A DNA stretch of 64,000 nt from a phage. Positions 45,694 through 60,173 of this stretch are shown here, one piece after another; position 1 is the stretch's first letter; each line of letters begins with the position of its first letter. A program made the position numbers and the translations under genes. The notes below the pieces were generated by a model, which was given only the letters and a program-made list of their open reading frames with translations, was not told the DNA's origin and searched no databases. The stretch lies in the sequence record PZ445450.1; one strand, 5' to 3'.

Positions 45694-46005
45694 TATTTTT
45701 AAGTTATCAGGTTGCTAGAGATCAGGAGGATTTCTAAAATGGATTTCCTCCTTTTGATATTTCACCGGACCAGATATTTTAAAATTCTTAGAAAATCAGA
45801 AAATGGATCGAAAACTAAAATGGATTTTTCAGAGTAGGCGCGACAAGCTGAATCGCTCATCCTATCGTTTGCACCATATTCTAGACCACCATTACAGATT
45901 TCCCGCACATGCTCACATCCTTCTACTAGAACTTCCTCCACTTACCCTTGACTTTTTATGGTAATAGTCTAACCACTATCTTGAGGTTGCGGTACAGCTT
46001 TCCGG

Positions 46006-46170
46006 GTACTCGATCTGTTTTTCGTTTCAAAGATTGAATTTTCTGAAAATTTTTCTCGATAAATTTCTCAGTACTCGATCTGTTTTTCGTTTTCTGAATC
46101 GGATTTTCTGGAAATCGTTCCGGAGCTCGACCTGAAATTTTTGGGGACGAAATCGATTTTTCGTTTTCAG
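46006..46170. repeat. Imperfect direct repeats with about 65-bp period
   Basis: GTACTCGATCTGTTTTTCGTTT at 46006 and 46071, related CGATTTTTCGTTTTC at 46154; AAATGGATTTTT motif recurs in the region. Confidence 0.6.
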
Positions 46171-46242
46171 AAATGGATTTTTAAAATTTCTATATGGGAA
46201 TATTTTATAGGATACTGTTTTATAGGAAATTGTTACGGAGGG

Positions 46243-46260
46243 TAATTAGCATGCTAATTA
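46243..46260. repeat. Perfect 18-bp palindrome
   Basis: TAATTAGCATGCTAATTA; operator-like. Confidence 0.6.
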
Positions 46261-46330
46261 AATTTATTAAATGCGAGGAGTTCTCATTTAGAATTTTGAA
46301 TGATAATCATTCTCGTTTGCAGAATAACGG

Positions 46331-46370
46331 GCAGGCCCGGTGATTGTCTCCCGGCCCCTGTTGCCCCGGC
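46331..46370 (+). repeat. GC-rich element, copy 1
   Basis: Core CCGGTGATTGTCTCCC within GGGCAGGCCCGG..CCGGCCCCTG. Confidence 0.55.
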
Positions 46371-46464
46371 TTGTTATTATAGTATCACACAGGACAAAGA
46401 AAGCAAGGACTTTTTGCATAAATTTTTAAATGATAATGATAACCGTTCTCATTTTATGCAGCGC

Positions 46465-46505
46465 CCATCCCCGGTGGTTGTCTCCCCCGTCACCGGTGCC
46501 TGCCG
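46465..46505 (+). repeat. GC-rich element, copy 2
   Basis: Core CCGGTGGTTGTCTCCC followed by CACCGGTGCCTGCC; reverse complement matches copy at 55694. Confidence 0.55.
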
Positions 46506-46675
46506 TCCTTTCGATAGGTATATTGTGCCACCTGGCGGGGCCGCTGTCAACACTTTTCAAAAAATTTTTCTAACCTGATGCGCTAACCGTTGCAACCTGG
46601 CGGGGCCAGCCTGGCAGGGGGGTGAAAGCTTGCAAACCTGGTAGTAGGGTAAACAATTGAAGAGGAGGTACAAAA

Positions 46676-46849
46676 ATGAAAGGTAATGCTACTCACCTGG
46701 AGAATGTAGCGATTAATGACGCTGAGGCTATCGCCCTGGTTGAAAAGGCTATGGCGGGAGCGTTGGAACATAAAGAAGAGTACGAAAAAATGGTGGTTAA
46801 CCTAGCGGGGGCGGCAGGTGGATTCTATCATAAAAATAATTTAAAATAG
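46676..46849 (+). CDS. Small early protein (57 aa, not in ORF track)
   Basis: ATG after GAGGAGG; hand-translated to TAG 46847-46849. Confidence 0.4.
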   Translation: MKGNATHLENVAINDAEAIALVEKAMAGALEHKEEYEKMVVNLAGAAGGFYHKNNLK

Positions 46850-46852
46850 TCG

Positions 46853-46880
46853 TTGACAACAAGGTTAATCATGGTATTAT
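46853..46880 (+). promoter_or_regulatory. Sigma70-like early promoter
   Basis: TTGACA-N16-TATTAT; the track ORF start at 46853 lies on this promoter. Confidence 0.6.
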
Positions 46881-46930
46881 TACCCTACAAGGTGAACAAC
46901 ACCGCACTAACCAGTAAAGAGGATAAATTT

Positions 46931-47128
46931 ATGAACGCATACGGGATCAAAGTACGTTGCAACACTCGCCAGGTGGTCACCAATCAAGTGATTTGCCGGG
47001 TGGATGTAACCATCAACAACGGGCAAGGCCTTTATAAATTTCGTCGCGGTCATAGCTATACCCTGCAACAGCTTAATCGTTGCGCCCTGACAAAAGGTCA
47101 GATCAACCACTGGTTTAATAAAAAATAA
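46931..47128 (+). CDS. Small early protein
   Basis: ATG 46931 after AAAGAGGA. Confidence 0.45.
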   Translation: MNAYGIKVRCNTRQVVTNQVICRVDVTINNGQGLYKFRRGHSYTLQQLNRCALTKGQINHWFNKK

Positions 47129-47131
47129 ATA

Positions 47132-47160
47132 TTGACATGTAGTCTGAAACAAAATATACT
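47132..47160 (+). promoter_or_regulatory. Sigma70-like early promoter
   Basis: TTGACA-N17-TATACT. Confidence 0.6.
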
Positions 47161-47192
47161 GAAAGCACAAAAGACACTAAGAGGATAAAATC

Positions 47193-47591
47193 ATGAAAAC
47201 CACAACCTTTAATTTTGACAATGCTGACTTCTCTTTTTCTGATGTTAAAAGCTGCCGCCGTGATCGCGGATTCTACAAGGCCTATAATCTGGTTGGCCTG
47301 GACGATGATAATAATTTGCACGAAGTAGCGGAGATCCGGTACTATGCCGCCGCCAGCGGTAACACTCACTACTGTGTATTTTGGATTCACGACAACAAGA
47401 ACAATAAGTACGGTTATACTGGCGGCAAGGCGAGCGGTCACGGTTATGATAAAGCCAACGCTGCACTTGAAAGCGCATTAAGTGCCATGGGAATCACTGC
47501 CGACGGCTGGATCTATGAAGAAGAGTTTTTGGCGGCACTTGCTAACCACCTGGGCTATAAAAAGCACATTGTAACATGTGCCCACGAATAA
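47193..47591 (+). CDS. Early protein, unknown function
   Basis: 132-aa ORF with AAGAGGA RBS. Confidence 0.5.
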   Translation: MKTTTFNFDNADFSFSDVKSCRRDRGFYKAYNLVGLDDDNNLHEVAEIRYYAAASGNTHYCVFWIHDNKNNKYGYTGGKASGHGYDKANAALESALSAMGITADGWIYEEEFLAALANHLGYKKHIVTCAHE

Positions 47592-47599
47592 AAAAATTA

Positions 47600-47627
47600 T
47601 TGACACGCTGCAAAATTCAAGTAAACT
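47600..47627 (+). promoter_or_regulatory. Sigma70-like early promoter
   Basis: TTGACA-N16-TAAACT, then 5' hairpin GGCGGGAATGTTTCCCGCC. Confidence 0.5.
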
Positions 47628-47675
47628 ATACACAAAAGGCGGGAATGTTTCCCGCCAACACAAAGGAAAAAGATC

Positions 47676-48071
47676 ATGAATAAGAACGTACGCCGCATCA
47701 TGAACGAACTGGCAAACGATGAAAAAATTATTGACATGCATTTAGTCAACATTTGCCGCCGTTGTGTAACATATAACAACCGCGCCGCAAAAGCGCGTGA
47801 GATGAACGCAAAAGGCACCTTAAAGCCTTTTCAGGTGGTTGTAAAATCTATAACTAATGCAGCAGGCCAGGCGCATGACCACAACAACGAGAGCACTAAT
47901 ATTGATCCGTCTTACGTAATGAAACGGATCCGGACTTGCAAGAATAAAGAGCAGGTGTATAACGTCATAGATTGGCTGGACTCCCTGGGCGATGTGGTTT
48001 ACAATAGGTTTTCTGCAGCCATCGAGATCCAGCTTGACAGATTGGACGGGAAAGTACTAAAAACTTATTGA
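47676..48071 (+). CDS. Early protein, unknown function
   Basis: 131-aa ORF; leader ..CCAACACAAAGGAAAAAGATC ATG. Confidence 0.5.
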   Translation: MNKNVRRIMNELANDEKIIDMHLVNICRRCVTYNNRAAKAREMNAKGTLKPFQVVVKSITNAAGQAHDHNNESTNIDPSYVMKRIRTCKNKEQVYNVIDWLDSLGDVVYNRFSAAIEIQLDRLDGKVLKTY

Positions 48072-48082
48072 GTTTATTTTTA

Positions 48083-48119
48083 GATGGCCTTGACTCCAGG
48101 GCCATCAATAAAGTAAACT
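48083..48119 (+). repeat. Conserved hairpin-promoter repeat, copy 1
   Basis: GATGGCC-TTGACTCCAG-GGCCATC hairpin holding TTGACT, then AATAAAGTAAACT; near-identical at 48704 and 52448. Confidence 0.6.
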
Positions 48120-48151
48120 AACCACAATTAAGCGGAAAAGGAGGCTTAAAG

Positions 48152-48271
48152 ATGAGCACTACACGCCAGCACACAAAGGTAACTATTATCGTTTGCATCA
48201 TTGGTTACATCCTGGCGCAAATGTTGATGGGTAGCGCCAACGGTGTAGCAAAATTTTTCTTAAACTTTTAA
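48152..48271 (+). CDS. Small hydrophobic peptide (39 aa)
   Basis: RBS AAAAGGAGG; VTIIVCIIGYILAQMLMG. Confidence 0.35.
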   Translation: MSTTRQHTKVTIIVCIIGYILAQMLMGSANGVAKFFLNF

Positions 48272-48299
48272 TTGACAAGCTAACTTAGATCAGTATACT
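48272..48299 (+). promoter_or_regulatory. Sigma70-like early promoter
   Basis: TTGACA-N16-TATACT. Confidence 0.6.
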
Positions 48300-48350
48300 A
48301 AGCACATAGACGGGAAAACTTCCCCAGACACACGAAAGGAGAAAAACACC

Positions 48351-48692
48351 ATGACTACTATGACCGCCGAAGAAAAAGCCCTGCAGATCGCCGCTCTGAA
48401 AAAACAGATCGCAGACCTTGAGAATAAGATCGATAACTTTGAAATCGACGAGGACAAGTACGACGAAAACTATGATGAATGGCTAGACGAGGTTTATGGC
48501 GAAATTATGATCGGAAACATTTCTTTTCTTCCGTCGCGTATCCTCAAGGAGTTAGATCCTATCGCTTACCGCTGCGGATTTAGCGACTACATCGACAGCC
48601 TGGATATTGAGGACGATGAAGAATACCGGGAATTACAGACAGAGTTGGAAGAAGCAAAAGAAGAGCTTGCGGAGCTGGAAGAAAACGAGTAA
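48351..48692 (+). CDS. Highly acidic early protein (113 aa)
   Basis: About one third Asp/Glu with coiled-coil segments; strong promoter and AAAGGAGA RBS. Confidence 0.5.
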   Translation: MTTMTAEEKALQIAALKKQIADLENKIDNFEIDEDKYDENYDEWLDEVYGEIMIGNISFLPSRILKELDPIAYRCGFSDYIDSLDIEDDEEYRELQTELEEAKEELAELEENE

Positions 48693-48703
48693 GATTATTT
48701 TTA

Positions 48704-48740
48704 GATGGCCTTGACTCCAGGGCCATCAATAAAGTAAACT
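48704..48740 (+). repeat. Conserved hairpin-promoter repeat, copy 2
   Basis: Same GATGGCCTTGACTCCAGGGCCATC..AAAGTAAACT element. Confidence 0.6.
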
Positions 48741-48781
48741 TTATACTGTTAACACTGAACTAATGCATAGGAGTTAAAACC

Positions 48782-49027
48782 ATGGCAGCACTAATCACTA
48801 AATATTACGCCCCTACCAACACCAAAAGCGCCCGTATCATGGTAAAAGGCTTCGGACGTAAAAAGGTTTACACCTGGGATTATGCCTTAGACACGGAAGA
48901 CAACTACACCAACGCGATGACAGATTTTATTAATGAGCTGAACACGCGGATCTTGACAAATTATAAAATTACCGATATTGCCTATATAGGGGAAGGCGGG
49001 ATCTGTTTTGTCGGTATCGTCAAATAA
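48782..49027 (+). CDS. Early protein, unknown function
   Basis: 81-aa ORF after repeat copy 2. Confidence 0.45.
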   Translation: MAALITKYYAPTNTKSARIMVKGFGRKKVYTWDYALDTEDNYTNAMTDFINELNTRILTNYKITDIAYIGEGGICFVGIVK

Positions 49028-49103
49028 ACTGTTTTTTCGGTGGTCCTGGTAGCAGGGCCATCTATAAAGATAGTTTATCAATACAATGAAAGGAGAAAGT
49101 AAC

Positions 49104-49451
49104 ATGATCAGTGGGGCAAGTTTTATTATTGGCGCTATTGCTACGGCTTTAATTGTAAACAAGATCCAATCTAAAAACGAAAAAGAGAGCAACGCGCTCA
49201 CAGAATACCCATTTTGGATATTCAACGACAATGAAGACTACATTATCAAGTACAAGAATGAGAAGGGCGACCAGGTAACACCGCGACCGATCCCGGCCTA
49301 CAAGATGCAAGAAACACTATACCGCCTAAAGGCTGGAGGCGCAAAAATCGTAGACTTTTGGGGATATGATTGCAAGGATCAGGAGGTTATAAAACGGCGT
49401 ATCCGGGCTATTCAGGCCAATATTGAAGTTAGCAAGGGGGGGAATATATGA
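49104..49451 (+). CDS. Early protein with N-terminal hydrophobic helix
   Basis: ATG 49104 after AAGGAGAAAG; N-terminus ISGASFIIGAIATALIV. Confidence 0.45.
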   Translation: MISGASFIIGAIATALIVNKIQSKNEKESNALTEYPFWIFNDNEDYIIKYKNEKGDQVTPRPIPAYKMQETLYRLKAGGAKIVDFWGYDCKDQEVIKRRIRAIQANIEVSKGGNI

Positions 49452-49645
49452 AGATTAATTTTGAGAAGATTGTAAAGCGATCTCATGTTTCCGAAGAGCT
49501 GCCGGAACGACGCCAGCGTAACAATAAACTGAATAAGCCAAAAAGATTTGGAAAGATCTGGCGAAATCATTATGATCGTAAATTGCCTGGCCTACTTTTG
49601 GAACGTGAACGACAGGCAGAACGATACCGCCATAAAGACAAATAA
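49448..49645 (+). CDS. Small basic protein
   Basis: 65-aa Lys/Arg-rich ORF overlapping upstream stop. Confidence 0.4.
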   Translation: MKINFEKIVKRSHVSEELPERRQRNNKLNKPKRFGKIWRNHYDRKLPGLLLERERQAERYRHKDK

Positions 49646-49653
49646 CAACCAAC

Positions 49654-49683
49654 GCCCCGCCATTGTGCGGGGCTTTTTATTTC
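49654..49683 (+). terminator. Rho-independent terminator
   Basis: Stem GCCCCGC/GCGGGGC, loop CATTGT, then TTTTTATTTC. Confidence 0.7.
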
Positions 49684-49826
49684 TATCCTACGAATAGCGC
49701 CCCTGGTTGGCCCTGTAAGCGCCAAAAAGGCCCCACCTATGCAATCGCCCCCCTTTAACCTGAAAACATCGCTTAGGGCCGTTTTATGGCGTTAAAAATA
49801 TCATTGACAGTGATTTTATTTAAAGC

Positions 49827-49854
49827 TTGACATCTTAAACAGGTTAGCTATACT
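49827..49854 (+). promoter_or_regulatory. Sigma70-like early promoter
   Basis: TTGACA-N16-TATACT; second TTGACA at 49804. Confidence 0.6.
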
Positions 49855-49886
49855 AACCACATCAAAGAGAGAAAGGAGTAAACGCC

Positions 49887-50147
49887 ATGCGTAAATTAAA
49901 AAATTTTGATAAAGTTGATGTTGTCCTGAATAATTTTTACTACTGCAACAACAAGGCCATTTGGTGGCGTGATAGTTCCACCGATAAAGTCAAGGCGCGC
50001 TTTCTCCAGGGGCACTGGCAAGGCCGCCCAGTGATTAAAATCATGGGGCAATTGGTAGCGTTTAAAAATTGCCGCCGTGTTGATGACGTTGAGGAGATTT
50101 TAAACATTTTGCGCCACAATAATTTAAAAAATAGTGTTGACAAGTAA
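49887..50147 (+). CDS. Early protein, unknown function
   Basis: 86-aa ORF; 3' end overlaps next promoter. Confidence 0.45.
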   Translation: MRKLKNFDKVDVVLNNFYYCNNKAIWWRDSSTDKVKARFLQGHWQGRPVIKIMGQLVAFKNCRRVDDVEEILNILRHNNLKNSVDK

Positions 50148-50164
50148 ATCTCAATAAGTATAAT
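50137..50164 (+). promoter_or_regulatory. Sigma70-like early promoter
   Basis: TTGACA-N16-TATAAT, then 5' hairpin GGCGGGAAAACTTACCGCC. Confidence 0.65.
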
Positions 50165-50221
50165 TAAACACACAGGCGGGAAAACTTACCGCCACTAACA
50201 AAGAAAACAGGAGAAAATATC

Positions 50222-50845
50222 ATGACCACCGTTAACATTACCACAGGTTACAATTTATCTTTCGACGTGCTGACCGACGAACAAAAAGAAAAAGCCATTG
50301 AAATGGTACGCGAAAGAGAAGAACACAGCGGGGATGACTTTTTTGCAGAAAGTGTAATTGAACACTACAAAGAATATATCTTTCCAGAGTACGGCCTTGA
50401 AGATACCGAAGTACATTGGTCCGGCTTTTGGTGCCAGGGTGACGGCGCGTCAATCAGTGCTGAAAACGTGGATTTAGAAAAATTTTTGCGTAAAGTAAAG
50501 GCCCTGACCAAGTTCCGATCAATTCGTCACTTGTTCGGCACAATGCACGATGGCGAGTTATCAGCCAGTGTTGAACGCGACAAGTACAGCCATTACAGCC
50601 ATGAAAACACTGTAAGCGGATACATTGATACCACCTGGCTAGATCTGACCGCCAAACAAGAAAACAAAGTGGAAGACCTGGAAGAGCTGATCACCGAGAC
50701 GGTACGGGAGCTATCCCGCAAGGTTTACGTAGACCTGGAGGAGGCCTATCTAGAACAGTTCACTACCGAAAACCTGATCGGCCTTATTGAGGCCAATGAT
50801 TGGCGGTTTGATGTGGATGAATATGGAGAGATGAGTTTTTCATAA
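50222..50845 (+). CDS. Acidic early protein (207 aa), unknown function
   Basis: ORF with CAGGAGA RBS; Glu/Asp-rich. Confidence 0.5.
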   Translation: MTTVNITTGYNLSFDVLTDEQKEKAIEMVREREEHSGDDFFAESVIEHYKEYIFPEYGLEDTEVHWSGFWCQGDGASISAENVDLEKFLRKVKALTKFRSIRHLFGTMHDGELSASVERDKYSHYSHENTVSGYIDTTWLDLTAKQENKVEDLEELITETVRELSRKVYVDLEEAYLEQFTTENLIGLIEANDWRFDVDEYGEMSFS

Positions 50846-50853
50846 ATAAAGTG

Positions 50854-50881
50854 TTGCAATAATCTAAAAACCTGCTATATT
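50854..50881 (+). promoter_or_regulatory. Sigma70-like early promoter
   Basis: TTGCAA-N16-TATATT, then hairpin GGGGCAAGACGTTTGCCCC. Confidence 0.5.
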
Positions 50882-50934
50882 AAAACTCAAGGGGGCAAGA
50901 CGTTTGCCCCACACAAAACAAAGAGGAAAACATT

Positions 50935-51315
50935 ATGAAAAACACTACTAAAGCTATTGACACCGTTATGTTTAACCTGGTTACCTTTCGCGAGGATATG
51001 AAAGATCTTCCACGTGAAACAGTGTGCGATCACATTGAAAACTATCGCAAACTAATCAAAGAGTTGCCTTTAAAACGTGACCAGTATGCGGCTAACGCTA
51101 TGCTCAACGCCATGATCAAAAAGATGATTCAGTGTGATTTAACCCTGGCCTATGATTATGCAGGTGGTCGTTTTGCAGTATACAATCAGCCCGTGCCTGG
51201 TATGGGCACCACTGAAGAATTGCACGCGCTCAATCTAAAACAAGACGTGTGGGATAGTATGCCCCGCGTGGTGGTGTGGGCAGAAAGCGGAAAGATTTAC
51301 GGCGATAATTTTTAA
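50935..51315 (+). CDS. Early protein, unknown function
   Basis: 126-aa ORF with AAGAGGAAAA RBS. Confidence 0.5.
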   Translation: MKNTTKAIDTVMFNLVTFREDMKDLPRETVCDHIENYRKLIKELPLKRDQYAANAMLNAMIKKMIQCDLTLAYDYAGGRFAVYNQPVPGMGTTEELHALNLKQDVWDSMPRVVVWAESGKIYGDNF

Positions 51316-51324
51316 TCAGGTAAC

Positions 51325-51351
51325 AGGCGGCATATTTGCCGCCTTATTGTT
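51325..51351 (+). terminator. Rho-independent terminator
   Basis: Stem AGGCGGCA/TGCCGCCT, loop TATT, then TATTGTT. Confidence 0.6.
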
Positions 51352-51379
51352 AAACAGAACTGCAAAAGAGGTACATAGA

Positions 51380-51751
51380 ATGGAATTTATTATTTTGGCC
51401 GTATTAGTTGCCTTGTTTAACGCCTGGATCGCTGGCAAGATGGGTAGATCCGCCTTTTTATGGTTTATTATATCTATTTTCCTGGGGGTGGTTGCAACTA
51501 TTGTACTTGTTATCCTTGCAATTGTTGACAAAGGCGATAATAGAAAGGGTAAAGTATTTTCCGACCTGTATGACGCGCAAACATTTGTCAACGCCTATTA
51601 TAGTGATCTTCCAGTCTCCCTACGCTGCAGCCTTGCACAACAGGTTTTCGATGAAGCTAAAACCAGAGATCACGCCCATGAGATTTGTTTAACTGAGGCG
51701 GATCGCCTATTTGAGAGGAATAGAAAATATGTGGGCCAGCCGTTTAAATAA
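51380..51751 (+). CDS. Membrane protein
   Basis: ATG 51380 after AAAGAGG; two hydrophobic helices FIILAVLVALFNAWIAG and LWFIISIFLGVVATIVLVILAIV. Confidence 0.45.
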   Translation: MEFIILAVLVALFNAWIAGKMGRSAFLWFIISIFLGVVATIVLVILAIVDKGDNRKGKVFSDLYDAQTFVNAYYSDLPVSLRCSLAQQVFDEAKTRDHAHEICLTEADRLFERNRKYVGQPFK

Positions 51752-51974
51752 TACCACGTTAATTAATCCCTTTGATGAAGATTTGAAGCCAGCCGCCTGG
51801 CGTGATGGATTCAATAACGAACGCTTTATTTTCAGGCCTGATCTTAAGGAATTTTATAACAATGGATCGAACAACGACAGAGATAATTTTTCTTGTGATG
51901 TGCGTGGTGATGGTACTCCTGGGGGCCATTGTAAACCACGTCACTACTACCAGGATGAAAGGGGGAGACGATGA
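51729..51974 (+). CDS. Hypothetical protein
   Basis: ATG 51729 after GAGGAA; overlaps neighbours. Confidence 0.35.
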   Translation: MWASRLNNTTLINPFDEDLKPAAWRDGFNNERFIFRPDLKEFYNNGSNNDRDNFSCDVRGDGTPGGHCKPRHYYQDERGRR

Positions 51975-52090
51975 CAACCAAGGATAAGCCCCGCACCGAT
52001 AAGGTGCGCCGGGTTATGGTATGGCTTGAGATCATCGCCCTTGAAATATTGTTAGGCGTAGGGATGTATTTTATCGCTGTAAGTAACTGA
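51971..52090 (+). CDS. Small membrane peptide (39 aa, not in ORF track)
   Basis: ATGA overlap with upstream stop; WLEIIALEILLGVGMYFIAV. Confidence 0.3.
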   Translation: MTTKDKPRTDKVRRVMVWLEIIALEILLGVGMYFIAVSN

Positions 52091-52094
52091 TAAC

Positions 52095-52125
52095 GGCCCC
52101 CGATCCCTGGGGGCCTAACTTTTTC
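52095..52125 (+). terminator. Rho-independent terminator
   Basis: Stem GGCCCCC/GGGGGCC, loop GATCCCT, then TAACTTTTTC. Confidence 0.65.
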
Positions 52126-52147
52126 AAAAAATTTTTCTTCCGGGGTG

Positions 52148-52175
52148 TTGCAATCCGGTCCGAAATATGGATAAT
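52148..52175 (+). promoter_or_regulatory. Sigma70-like promoter, TTGCA-type
   Basis: TTGCAA-N16-GATAAT preceded by TG; same ATATGGATAAT box as promoter at 53314. Confidence 0.5.
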
Positions 52176-52234
52176 AATAATAATCAACGGGGAGCTAATC
52201 CCCACCAACACAAAAACCAGAAAGGAGAAACAAA

Positions 52235-52435
52235 ATGAGCAACAATATCCGCGTTATTAACTTCAAAAAAGAAGAAAAAATTGCCGTGCTGATTGACGGT
52301 CAAGAAATCTTCAAGGGCGACTATGAAGATCATCAAACGGCGATTAGTATCACTCGCGTGATTGGTTACCATAATTTTTACCCCCAAGGCGCTGAGGCAG
52401 CTGTTAAACGAATCAAAGAGATTGTAGGCCTGTAA
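52235..52435 (+). CDS. Small early protein
   Basis: 66-aa ORF; leader hairpin GGGGAGCTAATCCCC + CCAACACAAAAACC + AAAGGAGA. Confidence 0.5.
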   Translation: MSNNIRVINFKKEEKIAVLIDGQEIFKGDYEDHQTAISITRVIGYHNFYPQGAEAAVKRIKEIVGL

Positions 52436-52447
52436 AATTTATTTTTA

Positions 52448-52484
52448 GATGGCCTTGACTCCAGGGCCATCAATAAAGTAAATT
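52448..52484 (+). repeat. Conserved hairpin-promoter repeat, copy 3
   Basis: GATGGCCTTGACTCCAGGGCCATC..AAAGTAAATT. Confidence 0.6.
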
Positions 52485-52528
52485 TAAACCCTGTTAAAAT
52501 ACCACGCAGTTAACAAGGAGTGATAGAC

Positions 52529-52828
52529 ATGTTTATCCAGGCTAATAATCTTTATTTCTTTGATGGTCAGATCGTAGACGGCGTGGAAGTAGAGATCACC
52601 GGGTGCCCTGGCGGTCAGGTTATGACTTTTCGGAATAATGCCTTTGATGATTCTCATATCGTTATGAGAATGGAAGTTAGTAAGCTGGACGATAAGAAAA
52701 CACTCATTGATTATTCCGTGAAAGATCATCCAGACTACCACATGATCTATGGCGATTTGTGCATTGTTGACCGTGACAAGGTGAACGGCATTGTGATCGC
52801 TATTGTGAACGATGTTTTCTCAAACTAG
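52529..52828 (+). CDS. Early protein, unknown function
   Basis: ATG 52529 after AAGGAG. Confidence 0.45.
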   Translation: MFIQANNLYFFDGQIVDGVEVEITGCPGGQVMTFRNNAFDDSHIVMRMEVSKLDDKKTLIDYSVKDHPDYHMIYGDLCIVDRDKVNGIVIAIVNDVFSN

Positions 52829-52845
52829 TTTCAGCAGGTTATTTT

Positions 52846-53196
52846 ATGAAAGTAAAACTATATTACCTTAATGAGCTTAACCCCCTTGCCCAGGTCCGCG
52901 CCCTGGCTAATACCTTGATTTGTGAGAAATCTGTATATTGTGTTGAGATTAACGCCATGCGTGAACGTCTCAAAGGTGGTTACTTTGACATCCATGCTGC
53001 AATCAACGGCCTGAATATGGAATTTATCCGCTTACGTAACAGCCGCCAGAGTCTGGCAAGAATGGAACAAGATCCGGCCCACCTTCGTAAGCTGGTTATT
53101 GAAAACCATCTGATGTTCAATGCCGATGGCGATTATTACCATTTTCACCGTAAACGCTGGTACCGTAGCGGCAATATAGGAAATAATGCAAAATAA
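52846..53196 (+). CDS. Early protein, unknown function
   Basis: 116-aa ORF. Confidence 0.45.
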   Translation: MKVKLYYLNELNPLAQVRALANTLICEKSVYCVEINAMRERLKGGYFDIHAAINGLNMEFIRLRNSRQSLARMEQDPAHLRKLVIENHLMFNADGDYYHFHRKRWYRSGNIGNNAK

Positions 53197-53232
53197 GGCC
53201 CCCGGCAGGGCCTACAGCGATATAATCATCTA

Positions 53233-53266
53233 AAGGCTATGCAACCGCATGGCCTTTATTATTTTG
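53233..53266 (+). terminator. Rho-independent terminator
   Basis: 10-bp stem AAGGCTATGC/GCATGGCCTT, loop AACC, then TATTATTTT. Confidence 0.6.
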
Positions 53267-53313
53267 GCGTTACAGCGGCCCCAAGGCGCTTAAAAATTTT
53301 TTTAAAGAAGTGC

Positions 53314-53341
53314 TTGCATCAAGTCCTACAATATGGATAAT
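53314..53341 (+). promoter_or_regulatory. Sigma70-like promoter, TTGCA-type
   Basis: TTGCAT-N16-GATAAT with upstream TG; 5' hairpin GGGGGCGGCCCCC follows. Confidence 0.5.
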
Positions 53342-53397
53342 AGGACGTGTCAGGGGGCGGCCCCCAATCATTAACCGGATAGATAGGAGTTAAAACT

Positions 53398-53682
53398 ATG
53401 GCTATTGTTACCGTTGGCGATGTAGTAGAAATGGAAGCCAAATACTTAAAAGCGGGTATGCATATCCTACGCAACGATCTTGAGCTAGTCCTGACAATGG
53501 TCGACTATAATCCCGGCCAGGATTATCCAAGCATCGACTACTTTTTTGAGTATGTTGATGAAGAGCTAAAAGAAGACGAAGCCTATTGCGGTGAATTTTG
53601 CAACTTCTTTTGCCCTGATGAGGTTGTAAAAGTTATCTATCAACCTGGCGTACCTTTCCCGTTGCACGCCATCAATAAATAA
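53398..53682 (+). CDS. Early protein, unknown function
   Basis: 94-aa ORF with TAGGAG RBS. Confidence 0.5.
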   Translation: MAIVTVGDVVEMEAKYLKAGMHILRNDLELVLTMVDYNPGQDYPSIDYFFEYVDEELKEDEAYCGEFCNFFCPDEVVKVIYQPGVPFPLHAINK

Positions 53683-53744
53683 GCCTAGCGGGGCCGAAAA
53701 GGCCCCTCCTGAAATTATGAAAAAATAAAGAGGGGTAAATCATC

Positions 53745-53981
53745 ATGATTGAACAAATTAAAAGCACTAAACCGAACGTTAACGGCAATGTTTCTCACTT
53801 TATTGGTGATAATGAAAGAGGGACACCGTACGCTGCGGTAACAGTTCAACCGAACGGGGATTATTGGTTTACTGTATACGGATCTTATTCTTTTGGGCGT
53901 CCGGTGCATGATAGAATTTTAAAAGTAGCTAATCCGACCGGGAAGAATATCACAGCAGAAAAATTTTTTGAAAATAGTTGA
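53745..53981 (+). CDS. Early protein, unknown function
   Basis: 78-aa ORF with AGAGGGG RBS. Confidence 0.45.
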   Translation: MIEQIKSTKPNVNGNVSHFIGDNERGTPYAAVTVQPNGDYWFTVYGSYSFGRPVHDRILKVANPTGKNITAEKFFENS

Positions 53982-54008
53982 CATGACCGTATAAGACTGT
54001 AGTATATA
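53978..54008 (+). promoter_or_regulatory. Sigma70-like promoter
   Basis: TTGACA then TATATA at about 19 nt; 5' hairpin GGGGGCAAGCCCC follows. Confidence 0.4.
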
Positions 54009-54053
54009 AATCAAAGGGGGCAAGCCCCACCAACCACAAAGAGGATAAAAATC

Positions 54054-54233
54054 ATGGCTATTATTGCAAAGACCGAGATTGTAGGGTTAGATTCTATTCT
54101 CCTGGCATATGAGGAAGCTATAGAAATGTATGTGGTTTCCTACGGTGAGTATATCCGTGAATATAAATCTGTTGATCTAGCTTTTGAATGTTATATTCGC
54201 CAGGTCAATAAAGCATATGATGATTATCGTTAA
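54054..54233 (+). CDS. Small early protein (59 aa, not in ORF track)
   Basis: ATG after AAGAGGA; hand-translated to TAA 54231-54233. Confidence 0.35.
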   Translation: MAIIAKTEIVGLDSILLAYEEAIEMYVVSYGEYIREYKSVDLAFECYIRQVNKAYDDYR

Positions 54234-54239
54234 AATAGT

Positions 54240-54267
54240 TTGACAACAATTATAAATCGGGTAGAAT
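54240..54267 (+). promoter_or_regulatory. Sigma70-like promoter
   Basis: TTGACA-N16-TAGAAT, then hairpin GCGGCA-ATGA-TGCCGC. Confidence 0.55.
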
Positions 54268-54318
54268 GTATTTCGTAGGGCGGCAATGATGCCGCTCACA
54301 ACTAGAAGAGGGGTCATC

Positions 54319-54513
54319 ATGGCGCTTAAAAAACTAACAAGCAATACTCGTTGGGATGAAATCGACGGGGAAGTTTACATTTTCGCCCGTAAACCAGGGG
54401 ATCAAAAATGGTCAAAGGCTTTTACTTGCCACCCTGCAACAATAGACCTGATAAAAAGGGAAGGTCTACGTGAAGCAGTATCAAGAAGCCTACTGATCCC
54501 TTGTAAAAAATAG
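54319..54513 (+). CDS. Small early protein
   Basis: ATG 54319 after AGAAGAGGGG; track start 54286 lies inside the leader hairpin. Confidence 0.45.
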   Translation: MALKKLTSNTRWDEIDGEVYIFARKPGDQKWSKAFTCHPATIDLIKREGLREAVSRSLLIPCKK

Positions 54514-54594
54514 TTGGACAATACGCGGTTACCTGGTAAAGTGTACGACATAGGGCGGGGCAATAAGGCAACGCCCATTAATGAGGGTGGAATC

Positions 54595-54699
54595 ATGTTA
54601 GAGAAAATTTTCACGGTTGTAGTAGTGGGCCTGGCGTTATCGGTTGGAGTAGTTGCAACTATGGCTAACATGATCCTATCTTCCCACGGTATTGGATAA
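54595..54699 (+). CDS. Small membrane peptide (34 aa)
   Basis: ATG 54595 after GAGGGTGG; FTVVVVGLALSVGVVATMANMIL; the track's 54514 start is probably an artefactual extension. Confidence 0.3.
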   Translation: MLEKIFTVVVVGLALSVGVVATMANMILSSHGIG

Positions 54700-54925
54700 G
54701 GTGAATCAAATGATCACGAATAAAACAGGTAAAACAGAATTTTTACGCGGCTTGCAGATCGGCAAGCCTGAGATCTGGTATTGCACTAAAACACCACGTG
54801 ACGAAATGAAAGACTTCACCGCCACGCTACAACGGGTAAAGATATCCATCACACAGAAAAAGGCCTTGATAGTGGTGGAAGGTGAGATCCCCCAAGCCGT
54901 TGTTATAGTTGAGCGTACAGCATAG
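54692..54925 (+). CDS. Hypothetical protein
   Basis: Track ORF; alternative in-frame ATG at 54710. Confidence 0.4.
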   Translation: MDKVNQMITNKTGKTEFLRGLQIGKPEIWYCTKTPRDEMKDFTATLQRVKISITQKKALIVVEGEIPQAVVIVERTA

Positions 54926-55014
54926 TTTAATCTATACCGTACACCCCATTAACTAACAAAGCATAAACAGGCGGCGGTGACCGCCTTAAACGCAACAGAA
55001 AGAGGATAGACACA

Positions 55015-55299
55015 ATGAAAAAGATGATCGCAGTGGTTGCCCTGGTTGTTGGACTTAATGCGCCTGCAATGGCTAAAGAGCTGGCAAAAGAGGTAGATCT
55101 AACTGATATCCATGCCGTCAATCAAATCGGGGTTACTTATCGCTTATGCCTTGCCGCTAAAACTTTTAAGGACGGCACTACAGAGTACTACGGATTCGAG
55201 GGCGTCCGGTGCGGTGAACTTGCTCGCGACCTTAAAGAAGATCCAGACCTGGAGGATCTGCCGATAACCGTAAACGGGAAAACTTACGTGAACCGTTAA
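55015..55299 (+). CDS. Secreted small protein
   Basis: Signal-peptide-like MKKMIAVVALVVGLNAPAMA; RBS AAAGAGGA. Confidence 0.5.
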   Translation: MKKMIAVVALVVGLNAPAMAKELAKEVDLTDIHAVNQIGVTYRLCLAAKTFKDGTTEYYGFEGVRCGELARDLKEDPDLEDLPITVNGKTYVNR

Positions 55300-55444
55300 C
55301 CATGAGAAAGATAATTATTACCATAGGGATCGTGGCGGCAATGTTGGCGATCTTTCCCCTTATGGTTAGGTATGTGCTGATCAGTGTTGTCCTGGTAGTC
55401 AGCGATCTAATGTTATATATTAACTCATTGTTTTAGGTGGAATA

Positions 55445-55636
55445 ATGACAGCAGAAGAAGTTAAAAAAGTACTGGCAGTACTACGTTACCATAATCATTG
55501 CAAGGTGAAGAATGATCCTGATTATCTCGATTCATCCCTTGAAGAGGATACACTGCAAGCCATAAGCAACATGCAAGAATTGCTTAAGCGTATGACAGAG
55601 AAAAACCGACCGGACTATATAGGCGAAAAAATATAA
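55445..55636 (+). CDS. Small early protein
   Basis: 63-aa ORF. Confidence 0.45.
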   Translation: MTAEEVKKVLAVLRYHNHCKVKNDPDYLDSSLEEDTLQAISNMQELLKRMTEKNRPDYIGEKI

Positions 55637-55650
55637 TCTTTATAAACCAT

Positions 55651-55684
55651 AAAACAGGGCTTGTAATGGTCCTGTTTTTTGTTA
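55651..55684 (+). terminator. Rho-independent terminator
   Basis: Stem AAAACAGG/CCTGTTTT with wobble-extended inner pairs, T-run TTTTTTGTT. Confidence 0.65.
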
Positions 55685-55693
55685 TACTTATTT

Positions 55694-55745
55694 CACGGCA
55701 GGCACCTGGCGACGGGGGGAGACAATCACCGGGGGTGCCTGTCAT
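55694..55745 (-). repeat. GC-rich element, copy 3 (inverted)
   Basis: GGCAGGCACC..GACGGGGGGAGACAATCACCGGGGGTGCCTGTC is the near reverse complement of copy 2. Confidence 0.55.
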
Positions 55746-55765
55746 ATAAAAAACTATAAAAACCG

Positions 55766-55794
55766 TTGACACCTGCCAGGCGGTGGGGTAACAT
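55766..55794 (+). promoter_or_regulatory. Sigma70-like promoter
   Basis: TTGACA-N17-TAACAT. Confidence 0.45.
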
Positions 55795-55848
55795 TTATCT
55801 TGAAGGGGCAAAAGTGCTCACACAACAACCAGAAGAGAGGAAAACGCC

Positions 55849-56121
55849 ATGTTAAGCTGGATTAACCAAGAAGTCGAATCACGTTTTAATACTATTTAGG
55901 ATCTCATCGAAAAAGAGGACGGAACATCAAGCCCTTATCTCAATAATCTTGAATTCCATTTCGTGGAAGCGATGAACGCAGAACATGATCACGAAGGTGG
56001 TGCGGACGAGTTCGCTAAAGGGTATGGCTTCAACAATGCCAACGAAATGATCGAGGCGGTTGTACTCCAGGCTGAGGAAGATTATCAATTAAAAACGCTT
56101 GAATTCTGCCGCCGTAAGTAA
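55849..56121 (+). other. Early ORF interrupted by an in-frame TAG at 55897-55899 (codon 17 of 90)
   Basis: ATG 55849 after AGAAGAGAGGAAAA; frame open on both sides of a single amber codon to TAA 56119-56121; alternative downstream start ATG 55975. Confidence 0.4.
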
Positions 56122-56183
56122 TAAGATAATGACACGGGCCAAAAGGCCCACTAATCAGAACCGCACAAAAAGAGAGAAAGAAA

Positions 56184-57286: not shown

Positions 57287-57304
57287 TTTCTTAACTGAAT
57301 TATC

Positions 57305-57334
57305 AAGGGGCTTAAAGGCCCCTTTCTTTTTGTC
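57305..57334 (+). terminator. Rho-independent terminator closing the early cluster
   Basis: Stem AAGGGGC/GCCCCTT then TCTTTTTGTC. Confidence 0.75.
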
Positions 57335-58046
57335 TGCTCTTCTCCTACCATAAACGGCCCTACCTGGCAAGTGGAATAATTGACTAGCCATCAATCCCAC
57401 ATACTGTACAAATATACATGGAAAATAACTATTGCATAATCTTTCATTGTGCGGTAGCAGGGCCATTTTTACCCGTTTTCTCTCCCAAAAGTGCACGTAA
57501 TGCCGCTATTGCACAAATTTTAACCTGATGCACATATCCAATATCTTGTCAACAACTAAAAATCTTTATAAGTCATACACTTATACAGCATCGAAAGCGT
57601 GTTCTACGTGAAAAATCGAGTATAACTATAGCCGCCAGATCTCAGAATTCACGTACGCACGCCATTCTATAGCCTGCAAAGTATTTATTCCAACCACAGA
57701 ATAACGGAATAGTCAATACCTGCATAAAATAATTATTCGTGTAAACTGCATAACATAAATCAGCTCAGGTGTCAACATTTTTCGTAAACAGTCCGAAATT
57801 ATCACGATGAGTTATCATAAACAGAGAAATCTTTAGTCGTCTAATGTTTACTGTACATTACTATACTGACTGGAATCATTAGATGACTAAGAAAAAGATA
57901 AGAAATAATTAATAATGTAATTGTTTTATCTGTAACAATAAGGCAACCATGCAAACGAATGTCATGGCGCGACGGAGTCGCGACATAATATAAAAGCAGT
58001 AACCATCACCCCCGTGATAGTTTGTCTGCAATCTATTATTCAGATC

Positions 58047-58118
58047 ATAGTTGCCTTGTATTTAGTTAATCATGACATAACAAGCAAGGCAACTATAGCT
58101 CTGATAATAGTTGCCCTG
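58047..58118. repeat. 12-bp inverted repeat pair plus a direct copy
   Basis: ATAGTTGCCTTG (58047) / CAAGGCAACTAT (58085) with 26-bp spacer; direct variant ATAGTTGCCCTG at 58107. Confidence 0.6.
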
Positions 58119-58247
58119 CTTTTATATTATGTCATAGATTGTTAGCTTGTTAACTGTCAGCCTGTTGGCTGTTAGCTTGTCAATTATTAAATTGCTAATC
58201 TTTATCATGCAAACGAATGTCATGGCTTATCATCTCTGTGTAAACAG

Positions 58248-58302
58248 TTTGGGCGTAAACTATTCAGGCGTAAACAGTCTATGCGTAAACAGTGAGATAT
58301 GG
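58248..58302 (+). repeat. Four tandem 15-bp repeats (iteron-like)
   Basis: Units start 58248, 58263, 58278, 58293, each G(T/C)GTAAAC(A/T)..; dispersed GTAAACAG copies also near 57783, 58587, 59347. Confidence 0.65.
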
Positions 58303-60053: not shown

Positions 60054-60173
60054 GAAATCTCCTCTGGAAATGAGAATGTGAACAGGGTTTATATGTTCCA
60101 ATGCACTGGAATTATGCACGTTTGCCTCTTCAGGCCATGCTTTAGCATGAGGAACCTGTGTGGGCTCGGTGCT

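What the first reader, a model, noticed from the sequence alone, without database searches (positions are those of the whole stretch)
46331..55745. GC-rich 40-nt element family in inverted orientation bracketing the 9-kb early cluster
Core CCGGTG(A/G)TTGTCTCCC at 46337 and 46471 (+) and its reverse complement at 55717-55732, with extended similarity between copy 2 and copy 3. Inverted repeats flanking a cassette could be recombination sites, boundary elements or paired RNA structures; their GC content contrasts with AT-rich surroundings.
Basis: seen in the sequence. Interest (0 to 1): 0.6.

Follow-up and report, generated by a model that had tools for sequence, protein, structure and literature searches.

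The report
Conserved promoter-leader elements with Fur boxes
The three GC-rich repeats are real, but rather than recombination sites they look like the first ~55 transcribed bases of three early-type promoters in an rV5-like coliphage, part of an undescribed promoter–leader–Fur-box unit kept as an outward-facing pair across at least five phage genera.

Summary
Observation confirmed. The 16-nt core occurs exactly three times, at 46337(+), 46471(+) and 55717(-), against 0.07 expected. A profile search finds no other copy in the 64 kb.

The interpretation changes. The window is a Vequintavirus (rV5-like). That is the position where most other early promoters of this cluster carry a short GC hairpin before the ribosome-binding site. 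Across 33 distinct copies from at least five genera, the sense-side promoter scores 8.8/12 against 7.0 for shuffles. Its -10 box usually ends 11 nt before the stem.

Most copies are followed within a few bases by 1-3 Fur boxes. One box shares an exact 18-mer with the E. coli mntH promoter. Genomes keep two units 7-9 kb apart, facing outward. Vequintavirus has a tandem duplicate of one unit.

No relative shows an inversion, and the cluster encodes no recognisable recombinase. One natural isolate has lost half of copy 3. RNA structure support is modest.

Most likely these are transcribed 5' leader elements of iron-linked early transcription units. The exact function is unknown. Not in Rfam, and not in the rV5 paper.

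The parts
55694..55749 (+). Copy 3 of the element, sense strand: ACGGCAGGCACCTGGCGACGGGGGGAGACAATCACCGGGGGTGCCTGTCATAT. A 10-bp outer stem GGCAGGCACC/GGTGCCTGTC encloses the conserved GGAGACAATCACCGG.
   Evidence: Profile hit E=1.1e-10. Fold -24.6 kcal/mol, z=-4.2. Core at 55717-55732.
55661..55688 (+). Promoter of copy 3: TTGTAA-16-TATACT with an upstream TG (extended -10). It overlaps the 3' half and T-tract of the preceding terminator hairpin. The inferred start is about 55695, so the stem begins about 1-2 nt into the RNA.
   Evidence: TTTTTTGTTATnCT is invariant across four genera in alignment A2. Same layout in all copy-3-type units.
55651..55678 (+). Intrinsic-terminator-like hairpin ending the upstream gene (AAAACAGGGCTTGTAATGGTCCTGTTTT + TTGTTAT). 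It forms a terminator/promoter composite with the promoter above.
   Evidence: Annotated as a terminator at the homologous place in phAPEC8.
46319..46368 (-). Copy 1 of the element, sense = minus strand: GCCGGGGCAACAGGGGCCGGGAGACAATCACCGGGCCTGCCCGTTATTCTGCA.
   Evidence: Profile hit E=1.3e-10. Core at 46337-46352. This is the orthologue of the unit conserved at 70-87% identity in distant genera.
46379..46406 (-). Promoter of copy 1 on the minus strand: TTGCTT(46406-46401)-16-TGaTACTAT(-10 at 46384-46379), then aataacaa, then the element. In other genera it reads TTGCAA-17-TATATT-atacacat-AGCGGGG.
   Evidence: Read. Orthologous promoters scored (9/12, -10 ending 11 nt before the stem). TTG of the -35 box and the -10 box are conserved in A1.
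46456..46506 (-). Copy 2 of the element, sense = minus strand. It is a tandem duplicate of the copy-1 unit (134-nt period), seen only in Vequintavirus records: GGCAGGCACCGGTGACGGGGGAGACAACCACCGGGGATGGGCGCTGC.
   Evidence: Profile hit E=3.5e-5. Repeat families D3/D4. Also present in Gotham, L037 and L064.
46522..46550 (-). Promoter of copy 2 on the minus strand: TTGACA-17-CACAAT with an upstream TG.
   Evidence: 10/12. CATAAT version scores 11/12 in L064.
46299..46317 (.). Fur box 1 (AATGATAATCATTCTCGTT), immediately downstream, in sense, of copy 1.
   Evidence: 1 mismatch to the published 9-1-9 Fur consensus AATGAgAATcATTctCATT. 15/19 to the E. coli consensus. GATAATCATTCTCGTTTG is identical to the box in the E. 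coli mntH promoter.
46429..46453 (.). Fur box 2, made of overlapping sites (GATAATGATAACCGTTCTCATT), immediately downstream, in sense, of copy 2.
   Evidence: (16/19 to GATAATGATAATCATTATC).
45999..46194 (.). Three ~65-nt direct repeats, iteron-like (..GTACTCGATCTGTTTTTCGTTT..), in the T-rich non-coding tract that copy-1 and copy-2 transcripts would enter.
   Evidence: family D1. phiTE has ~8 GGGTCTCGATC repeats at the equivalent place.
55766..55794 (+). Next early promoter (TTGACA-17-TAACAT) with its own short leader hairpin. It lies downstream of copy 3 and drives the gene starting at 55849.
   Evidence: Listed as P168 in the rV5 paper's Table S4.

Best explanation
Each 'GC-rich 40-nt element' is the initial transcribed region (about +1 to +55) of a host-RNA-polymerase (sigma-70) early-type promoter.

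The conserved unit has four parts. (1) A -35/-10 promoter. (2) About 8 nt of spacer. (3) A ~55-nt G-rich leader, closed by a variable outer stem and carrying the near-invariant GGAGACAAWCACCGG..TGCCCGCTATTC. (4) One to three Fur operators, phased 29 bp apart.

The element is an enlarged, sequence-conserved relative of the short 5'-terminal GC hairpins that follow most early promoters of this cluster.

Inferred mechanism, not shown. The 5'-terminal stem protects the transcript's 5' end; this is the established effect of 5' stem-loops against RNase E / RppH-dependent decay. The conserved single-stranded stretch, together with the Fur boxes just downstream, makes elongation beyond about +60 depend on Fur occupancy, that is on iron. 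For copy 3 read-through would enter the last early genes. For copies 1 and 2 it would run as non-coding RNA into the Fur-box, AT-rich and iteron tract.

Shown by computation: repeat family, promoter association and orientation, Fur-box identity, paired outward arrangement across genera, and absence of inversions.
Inferred: that the promoters fire, RNA stabilisation, and a Fur roadblock.
For: Window is rV5-like.

Promoters lie directly upstream of all three copies in one orientation.

In 33 distinct copies the best sense-side promoter averages 8.85/12, against 6.97 +/- 1.1 for shuffled upstream sequence. The -10 box ends 11 nt before the stem in most. The opposite side scores 7.03, which is chance, and its position varies.

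TTTTTTGTTATnCT is invariant before copy-3-type elements in four genera.

Eight other early promoters in 47.6-55.8 kb have the same layout: -10, ~8 nt, short GC hairpin, SD, ATG.

The element-plus-promoter core is conserved at 70-87% identity in genera whose flanks no longer align.

The outer stem pairs in 66-80% of cells against 31-50% in slid registers. Three pairs show A-U/G-C exchange, and the covariation score beats 499/500 shuffles.

Fur boxes sit at +55 to +60 in most copies, with further boxes 29 nt apart. The consensus equals a published Fur box. There is an 18-nt identity with the mntH promoter box.

Pairs are outward-facing and 7.2-9.3 kb apart in five genera.
Against: No transcript data exist for this phage group, so promoter use and RNA ends are predictions.

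RNAalifold finds no consensus structure.

Slid controls +2/+3 come close on covariation.

G.U versus A.C counts are symmetric at 26 vs 24, so pairing does not identify the strand or even RNA rather than DNA.

Copy 1 alone folds no better than shuffles, z=-0.8.

Copies 1 and 2 have no gene downstream on their strand, so a plain mRNA-leader role cannot apply to them.

Fur operators usually overlap promoters rather than sit at +60.

Copy 3 in Vequintavirus and phAPEC8 lacks Fur boxes.

A natural isolate lacks half of copy 3, so it is not essential.
Confidence: 0.55

Rival explanations
1. Fur-repressed promoters on the first reader's strand. The Fur box lies in the spacer of a + strand promoter (TTGAAT-18-CAGAAT), as in the host mntH promoter. 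The GC element would then be that transcript's leader or attenuator, feeding iron-regulated transcription into the early cluster, possibly convergent with the sense promoter.
For: The box plus flank resembles the mntH promoter, where the box overlaps -35 and spacer. TTGAATGAnAATCATTCTCATTTGCAGAAT is highly conserved. The + direction is the direction of all genes. No good + strand promoter is evident just before the first cluster gene at 46676.
Against: The antisense-side promoter score equals chance (7.03 vs 6.97) and its position wanders. The critical second base of the putative -10 varies: CAGAAT, CTGAAT, CGGAAT, CAAAAC. Copy-3-type units have the same element and Fur boxes, but there this reading would point against the genes. 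The window's copy 3 has no Fur box at all.
Confidence: 0.15
2. Origin-type priming units. A promoter makes a G-rich RNA that stays hybridised (R-loop) and primes or activates replication in the adjacent AT-rich and iteron DNA. This would resemble the promoter-plus-unwinding-element origins of T4 (oriF/oriG) and the promoter-plus-AT-rich origin of T7. Two outward-facing units would give two directional origins.
For: The sense RNA is G-rich with G runs. Copies 1 and 2 have no gene downstream. Instead they are followed by AT-rich Fur boxes, A/T tracts and iteron-like repeats, conserved in kind in phiTE. In unrelated viral contigs the same palindrome sometimes lies beside DnaA-box-like repeats.
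Against: No GC-skew switch at 46 or 55.7 kb; the only switch is at ~57-61 kb. Copy 1 itself is barely G-skewed. Copy 3 in this phage is followed by ordinary genes, not iterons. Copy 3 is dispensable in rV5_ev146.
Confidence: 0.12
3. Recombination or inversion sites, or ends of a movable cassette. The inverted copies would be substrates of a recombinase or of homologous recombination that flips or excises the 9-kb cluster.
For: Inverted orientation around a block of non-essential small genes. One deletion endpoint falls inside copy 3. Related promoter/stem-loop cassettes (PeSLs) of T4-type phages do mediate shuffling.
Against: All relatives examined are collinear. Shared identity is only ~16-45 nt. 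No recombinase domain in the cluster. The rV5_ev146 junction joins copy 3 to an unrelated site by microhomology, not to another copy. The pair is conserved in place across subfamilies rather than being mobile.
Confidence: 0.04
4. Trans-acting small RNA or antisense pairing. Short RNAs from the units act through the invariant GGAGACAAWCACCGG on a target. For example, copy-3 RNA could pair with + strand read-through transcripts that carry the complement at copies 1 and 2, or with a host mRNA.
For: A 15-nt stretch is near-invariant while the stems vary. Copies 1 and 2 are non-coding. The complement of the core exists on + strand RNA at 46337 and 46471.
Against: No terminator follows the element in sense. 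No other complementary site occurs in the window. No Rfam family matches. Host targets were not tested.
Confidence: 0.08

Closest known systems
PeSLs (promoter-early stem-loop cassettes) of T4-type phages (Arbiol et al. 2010, PMC2839356; Comeau et al. 2014, PMC4122927)
   Same: Strong sigma-70-like early promoters are coupled to GC-rich (GGGG..CCCC) stem-loops. They are repeated many times among small non-essential ORFs of a plastic early region. At copy 3 there is a terminator/promoter composite. Recombination between similar cassettes gives indels; in rV5_ev146 the deletion 47666->48164 joins two similar leaders.
   Different: A different phage lineage (rV5-like, not T4-like). Here the hairpin lies after the -10 box, in the transcribed leader, and has no T-tract. 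The three elements are ~55 nt, sequence-conserved across genera, inverted relative to each other, followed by Fur boxes, and two of them have no downstream ORF.
5'-terminal stem-loop mRNA stabilisers (ompA 5' UTR type; established knowledge: Emory, Bouvet and Belasco 1992)
   Same: A stable hairpin begins within a few nucleotides of the predicted 5' end.
   Different: Stabilisers need no specific sequence. This element keeps a 15-nt invariant stretch and a conserved 3' arm, which points to an additional sequence-specific role. Stabilisation was not tested.
Fur operators of enterobacterial iron and manganese genes, e.g. the E. coli mntH promoter
   Same: A 19-bp 9-1-9 palindrome fits published consensus sequences. 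There is an 18-nt identity with the mntH box. Sites occur in phased arrays, as at strongly regulated promoters.
   Different: Located at about +55 to +130 of the inferred transcription unit rather than over -35/-10. Found in a virulent phage, including inside its terminal repeat. Binding was not tested.
HK022 put and lambda nut promoter-proximal antitermination RNAs
   Same: Conserved RNA elements lie just downstream of two divergent early promoters and are therefore mutually inverted. CGCTATTC faintly resembles boxA CGCTCTTA (recalled from memory, not tested).
   Different: No conserved two-hairpin fold. No known partner protein. The leftward units have no genes to antiterminate into. No Rfam match.

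Membership tests
PeSL regulatory cassettes (T4-type phages) | Strong sigma-70-like early promoter in the cassette | tested here: met
   promoters of 8-11/12 directly upstream of all copies.
PeSL regulatory cassettes (T4-type phages) | The stem-loop acts as a transcription terminator (hairpin plus T-run) placed with the promoter | tested here: not met
   The element has no T-run on either strand. Only the separate hairpin at 55651-55678 upstream of copy 3 is terminator-like.
PeSL regulatory cassettes (T4-type phages) | Many direct copies flanking small ORFs, with recombination between them producing indels or mini-circles | tested here: inconclusive
   The generic short leaders behave this way: deletion 47666->48164 in rV5_ev146. 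But the three elements are inverted or tandem, and no exchange between them is seen in relatives.
Fur operator (Fur box) | 19-bp palindrome matching the Fur consensus | tested here: met
   (1-3 mismatches; 10 hits vs 0.19 expected). (published consensus AATGAgAATcATTctCATT). (18-nt identity with the mntH promoter box).
Fur operator (Fur box) | Overlaps the -35/-10 region of the regulated promoter | tested here: not met
   Boxes start at +55 to +60 of the supported promoter. A promoter over the boxes on the other strand is no better than chance.
Fur operator (Fur box) | Bound by Fe2+-Fur, with iron-dependent expression | not testable with these tools
   Needs EMSA or ChIP, and infection of a fur mutant or iron-limited host.
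Site-specific invertible segment (Gin/Hin/Cin type) or mobile cassette | Both orientations (or presence and absence) of the bracketed segment among isolates | tested here: not met
   Collinear in at least 11 relatives and in four other genera.
Site-specific invertible segment (Gin/Hin/Cin type) or mobile cassette | A recombinase gene in or next to the segment | tested here: not met
   The 10 largest ORFs have no Pfam recombinase domain, and their PHROGs are all of unknown function. Smaller ORFs were not scanned.
Structured non-coding RNA family (Rfam) / tRNA | Match to a curated covariance model or a tRNA fold | tested here: not met
   No hit at gathering threshold. Only E>4 noise in permissive scans. 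ARAGORN finds nothing in the window or at the site annotated tRNA-Met in a Klebsiella phage.
Structured non-coding RNA family (Rfam) / tRNA | Conserved secondary structure with significant covariation | tested here: inconclusive
   The named outer stem is better than slid registers and shuffles. But RNAalifold predicts nothing and G.U is about equal to A.C.
put/nut-type antitermination RNA | Promoter-proximal position downstream of divergent early promoters | tested here: met
put/nut-type antitermination RNA | Conserved two-stem-loop fold (put) or boxA+boxB (nut), acting on downstream terminators | tested here: not met
   No conserved two-hairpin structure. Activity is not testable here.

The most novel reading that the evidence does not exclude
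rV5/phAPEC8-like virulent phages carry an ancient pair of outward-facing 'promoter - conserved leader RNA - Fur operator array' switches. These delimit the terminal ~12-kb early block, with further Fur boxes inside the terminal repeat. They would let the phage read the host's iron status, or titrate Fur, to gate early transcription or replication. The same host operator recurs in arrays in many unrelated phages, which would make Fur control a widespread and overlooked layer of virulent-phage regulation.
Probability: 0.25. Interest if true: 0.75.

Novelty: new variant of a known kind. Interest (0 to 1): 0.5.

Why it matters
rV5-like and phAPEC8-like phages are widely used therapy and biocontrol candidates, yet their early regulation is essentially unmapped. 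This analysis does four things.

1. It replaces a spurious ORF annotation (and, in one relative, spurious tRNA annotations) with a defined regulatory unit.
2. It predicts three testable transcription starts, two of them antisense to the gene array.
3. It links a conserved phage non-coding element to host Fur operators. That suggests infection by these phages may respond to iron availability, a variable that differs sharply between gut, urine, blood and laboratory broth.
4. It gives a concrete model (promoter, leader, then roadblock operator) that simple RNA mapping and fur-mutant infections can confirm or kill.

Tried and rejected
1. tRNA or degenerate tRNA. A Klebsiella phage record annotates tRNA-Met/Ile at the homologous place, but ARAGORN finds none there or in the window.

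2. Known RNA families. Rfam at gathering and permissive thresholds finds nothing.

3. Coding. The 92-aa ORF 46300-46578, annotated in Gotham, starts at the ATG inside the Fur box. It resembles phiTE's counterpart only over the conserved DNA, and it has no Pfam hit.

4. phiTE pseudo-ToxI locus. It lies elsewhere in that genome, at 106.7 kb versus 39.6 kb.

5. Collection scan with the 15-mer core. The hits are dominated by chance matches in unrelated prophage contigs and are uninformative. A 23-nt pattern found only 8 loci.

6. De novo consensus folding. No structure was predicted.

7. Strand assignment from G.U versus A.C. The counts are symmetric.

8. GC skew as origin evidence. There is no switch at the elements.

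9. A conserved non-coding stretch downstream of copy-3-type units in Seunavirus and Mydovirus is absent from the window.

10. Host origin of the whole region. No E. coli match to the 251-nt region; only the Fur box matches.

11. Literature. Searches for Fur boxes in virulent phages, transcriptomes of this group, or the palindrome in phage context found no description. The rV5 promoter table lacks these promoters.

12. A preQ1-like A-rich tail after copy 3 (UAUAAAAAACUA) is not conserved in other genera and gives no Rfam hit.

Full report
OBSERVATION. The stated core CCGGTG(A/G)TTGTCTCCC is present exactly at 46337-46352(+), 46471-46486(+) and 55717-55732(-). Even with two mismatches allowed there are no other matches in 64 kb. 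Chance expectation is 0.07, and 0 of 100 shuffles reach three matches. A profile built from homologues finds these three copies and no others in the window, with E = 1e-10, 1e-10 and 3.5e-5. The copies are 64-72% G+C in a 43.8% G+C window. Copies 2 and 3 share extended similarity.

CONTEXT. The window is an rV5-like phage (Vequintavirus): 98.5% identical to phage Gotham over 1.5 kb, with more than 100 close relatives. Copies 1 and 2 lie in a ~700-nt non-coding tract (45965-46675) inside a long array of small + strand genes. Copy 3 lies between a terminator and the next promoter, 9.3 kb downstream. Gotham's 459-bp direct terminal repeat maps to window 58366-58829. So copy 3 is ~3 kb and copies 1 and 2 ~12.4 kb from a physical genome end.

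ORIENTATION AND PROMOTERS.
- Copy 3: TTGTAA-16-(TG)TATACT at 55661-55688(+), overlapping the preceding terminator's T-tract.
- Copy 2: TTGACA-17-(TG)CACAAT at 46550-46522(-).
- Copy 1: TTGCTT-16-TGaTACTAT at 46406-46379(-).

The same cluster shows a general rule. At eight ordinary early promoters (47600, 48272, 50137, 50854, 52148, 53978, 54240, 55766) the -10 box is followed by ~8 nt (atacacaa-like), a short GC hairpin, an A/C-rich leader, an SD and an ATG. The three elements occupy exactly that post-promoter position but are longer and richer in G+C.

I collected 33 distinct copies from the window, GenBank relatives and IMG/VR contigs. The best sense-side promoter averages 8.85/12, against 6.97 +/- 1.1 for shuffled upstream sequence, and the -10 box ends 11 nt before the stem in most copies. 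On the other side of the element the best 'promoter' scores 7.03, which is chance, at inconsistent distances. Before copy-3-type elements, TTTTTTGTTATnCT is invariant in four genera. The rV5 genome paper lists the promoter after copy 3 (its P168) but none of these three.

THE UNIT IS LARGER THAN 40 NT AND INCLUDES FUR BOXES. In sense, the conserved part is a variable 5' arm and a G-rich stretch, followed by the near-invariant GGAGACAAWCACCGG and then TGCCCGCTATTC. Within 2-5 nt comes a 19-bp palindrome, AATGAnAATCATTCTCATT, often in two or three copies spaced 29 bp apart.

This palindrome is letter for letter a published 9-1-9 Fur-box consensus, and it resembles Acinetobacter Fur sites. The two sites next to copies 1 and 2 are the best matches in the window to the classical E. 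coli consensus. Consensus matches number 10 in the window against 0.19 expected. The box beside copy 1 shares an exact 18-mer (GATAATCATTCTCGTTTG) with the promoter region of E. coli mntH in ~3,900 genomes. From established knowledge, mntH is repressed by Fe-Fur. Copy-3-type units of Seunavirus, Certrevirus and Mydovirus-like phages also carry Fur boxes downstream. The Vequintavirus and phAPEC8 copy 3 have lost them.

PAIRING ACROSS GENERA. The copy-1-type core is conserved at 70-87% identity in Phapecoctavirus, Mydovirus, Certrevirus and Seunavirus although the flanks no longer align. The same holds for the copy-3-type core. Where one locus holds both, they face outward and are 7.2-7.9 kb apart (L077, L022, L033, L050). 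In phAPEC8 the distance is ~9.06 kb across the record end, and in the window 9.3 kb. Copy 2 is a Vequintavirus-specific tandem duplicate with a 134-nt period.

NOT RECOMBINATION SITES. The copy-1 and copy-3 regions lie on the same strand in the same order in every relative for which both coordinates were returned. The ten largest ORFs of the bracketed cluster have no Pfam domain of note, and their PHROGs are all of unknown function.

In the natural isolate rV5_ev146 a 6.1-kb deletion joins 49593 to 55724, inside copy 3. The junction (GCAAAT|CACCGGGCCTGCC) is a microhomology join to an unrelated site, not an exchange between copies. It also shows that the promoter and 5' half of copy 3 are dispensable. 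A second deletion in that phage (47666->48164) joins two similar generic leaders. This recalls the promoter/stem-loop (PeSL) cassettes of T4-type phages, which mediate modular shuffling.

RNA STRUCTURE. Copy 3 folds strongly (-24.6 kcal/mol, z -4.2), copy 2 moderately (z -2.2), and copy 1 not above background (z -0.8). A closing stem in constant register pairs in 66-80% of cells, against 31-50% when slid. Three pairs exchange A-U and G-C, and the covariation score exceeds 499/500 shuffles with 28 sequences. Against this, RNAalifold predicts no consensus, the +2/+3 slid controls come close, and G.U is about equal to A.C, so the pairing does not identify the strand. I conclude that primary sequence is the main conserved feature, with a loosely maintained stem. 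No Rfam family or tRNA model matches. The ORFs across the tract are not conserved as proteins.

MECHANISM. Best-supported reading (0.55): the elements are the initial transcribed regions of conserved early-type promoters. They are enlarged, sequence-specific versions of the 5' hairpins used throughout the cluster. By established knowledge of 5'-terminal stem-loops, they probably protect the RNA's 5' end. The invariant stretch and the adjacent Fur operators suggest an added regulatory role: Fur-dependent blockage of elongation at about +60, giving either a short leader RNA or read-through. For copy 3, read-through enters the last early genes. For copies 1 and 2 it is non-coding and runs into Fur boxes, A/T tracts and iteron-like repeats (45999-46194; phiTE has ~8 GGGTCTCGATC repeats at the same place).

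Rivals:
- A Fur-repressed promoter on the other strand (0.15). This is weakened.
- Origin-type priming units (0.12). There is no skew support.
- A trans-acting or antisense small RNA (0.08).
- Recombination or inversion sites (0.04).

Everything about transcription, Fur binding and RNA stability is inference. No transcriptome of this phage group was found.

COMPARISON AND NOVELTY. The closest known systems are PeSL cassettes (same idea of promoter plus GC stem-loop repeated in a plastic early region; different order, lineage and behaviour), generic 5' stabiliser hairpins, host Fur operators, and more remotely put/nut promoter-proximal RNAs. The unit fails defining tests of each: no terminator function, operators not over the promoter, and no conserved two-hairpin fold. 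So it is best called a new variant of known kinds rather than a member. I found no description of it in the rV5 paper or in full-text searches.

VERDICT. The finding is real. The 'invertible or mobile cassette' reading is not supported. What is there is a conserved promoter-leader-Fur-box unit of unknown precise function. The interest is moderate (0.5) and comes mostly from the Fur link and the deep conservation of the outward-facing pair.

Noticed in passing
window 58668-58704 and 58802-58820 (inside 58366-58829): Three more Fur-box-like palindromes lie inside the stretch that corresponds to Gotham's 459-bp direct terminal repeat, so they would be present at both genome ends. No GC element accompanies them.
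   Followed up: partly
IMG/VR loci L010, L017, L026, L028, L031, L032, L035, L039, L084 and others: The exact palindrome TGAATGAnAATCATTCTC occurs in more than 80 viral contigs. Of 46 distinct loci unrelated to rV5, 18 have at least 2 boxes and 7 have at least 3 boxes within +/-250 nt, often as regular arrays (for example 3 copies at 30-nt spacing in L026). In L010/L084 a box starts 7 nt after a TTGACA-17-TAAAAT promoter. In L017, L019 and L041 it lies near TTATCCACA (DnaA-box-like) repeats. Use of the host Fur operator by phages may be widespread.
   Followed up: partly
window 45999-46194; L004 (phiTE) 190-460: There are three ~65-nt direct repeats containing GTACTCGATCTGTTTTTCGTTT in a T-rich tract. 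phiTE has about eight GGGTCTCGATC repeats at the equivalent position. These are iteron-like and their function is unknown.
   Followed up: partly
window 47600-55800: The early genes share a stereotyped layout: A/T-rich upstream tract, TTGACA-16/17-TATACT, ~8 nt, a 5-8-bp GC hairpin, CACAACAAAGAGGA, then ATG. Three promoters (48090, 48711, 52455) are near-identical over ~55 nt (ttatttttagatggccTTGACTccagggccatcaataaagTAAAYT). These direct repeats could mediate cassette gain or loss.
   Followed up: partly
L212 (rV5_ev146 LR699804.1) versus window 47666/48164 and 49593/55724: This natural isolate has two deletions in the cluster, one of ~0.5 kb between similar leaders and one of 6.1 kb by microhomology ending inside copy 3. 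So most of the bracketed cluster is dispensable.
   Followed up: yes
window 46526-46542, 46591-46607, 46609-46619, 55766-55794: A GC-rich motif ACCTGGCGGGG/CCTGCCAGGCGGTGGGG recurs in or beside promoter spacers near the elements: 24 loose matches against 8.4 expected in the window. The + strand of copy 3 contains a related CACCTGGCGACGGGG. Significance unknown.
   Followed up: no
window 55849-56124: The gene after copy 3 is intact in Gotham (90 aa). In the window it carries an in-frame TAG at codon 17 (Trp in Gotham), with the rest of the frame conserved. This is a recent nonsense change or a sequencing variant.
   Followed up: partly
L001 11501-11788 (Gotham F10B_0202); L003 611-764 (Klebsiella phage K45PH128C2); L006 598-840: Public annotations over the copy-1 unit look spurious. 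'Hypothetical protein' ORFs start at the ATG inside the Fur box, and tRNA-Met/tRNA-Ile calls are not reproduced by ARAGORN.
   Followed up: yes
window 57300-60500 and ~61000: A large stretch has almost no ORFs of 50 aa or more, probably the 'non-coding' box of the rV5 paper. GC skew changes sign at ~61 kb, probably where gene orientation flips.
   Followed up: no
L214 1490-1560 (E. coli mntH promoter) versus window 46296-46330: Similarity to the mntH promoter extends a little beyond the Fur box: CATTCTCGTTTG-GAATAGC in the host versus CATTCTCGTTTGCAGAATAAC in the window, and GAATAGCGGGC in other genera. This raises the possibility that the phage unit's Fur-box end derives from a host promoter.
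   Followed up: partly
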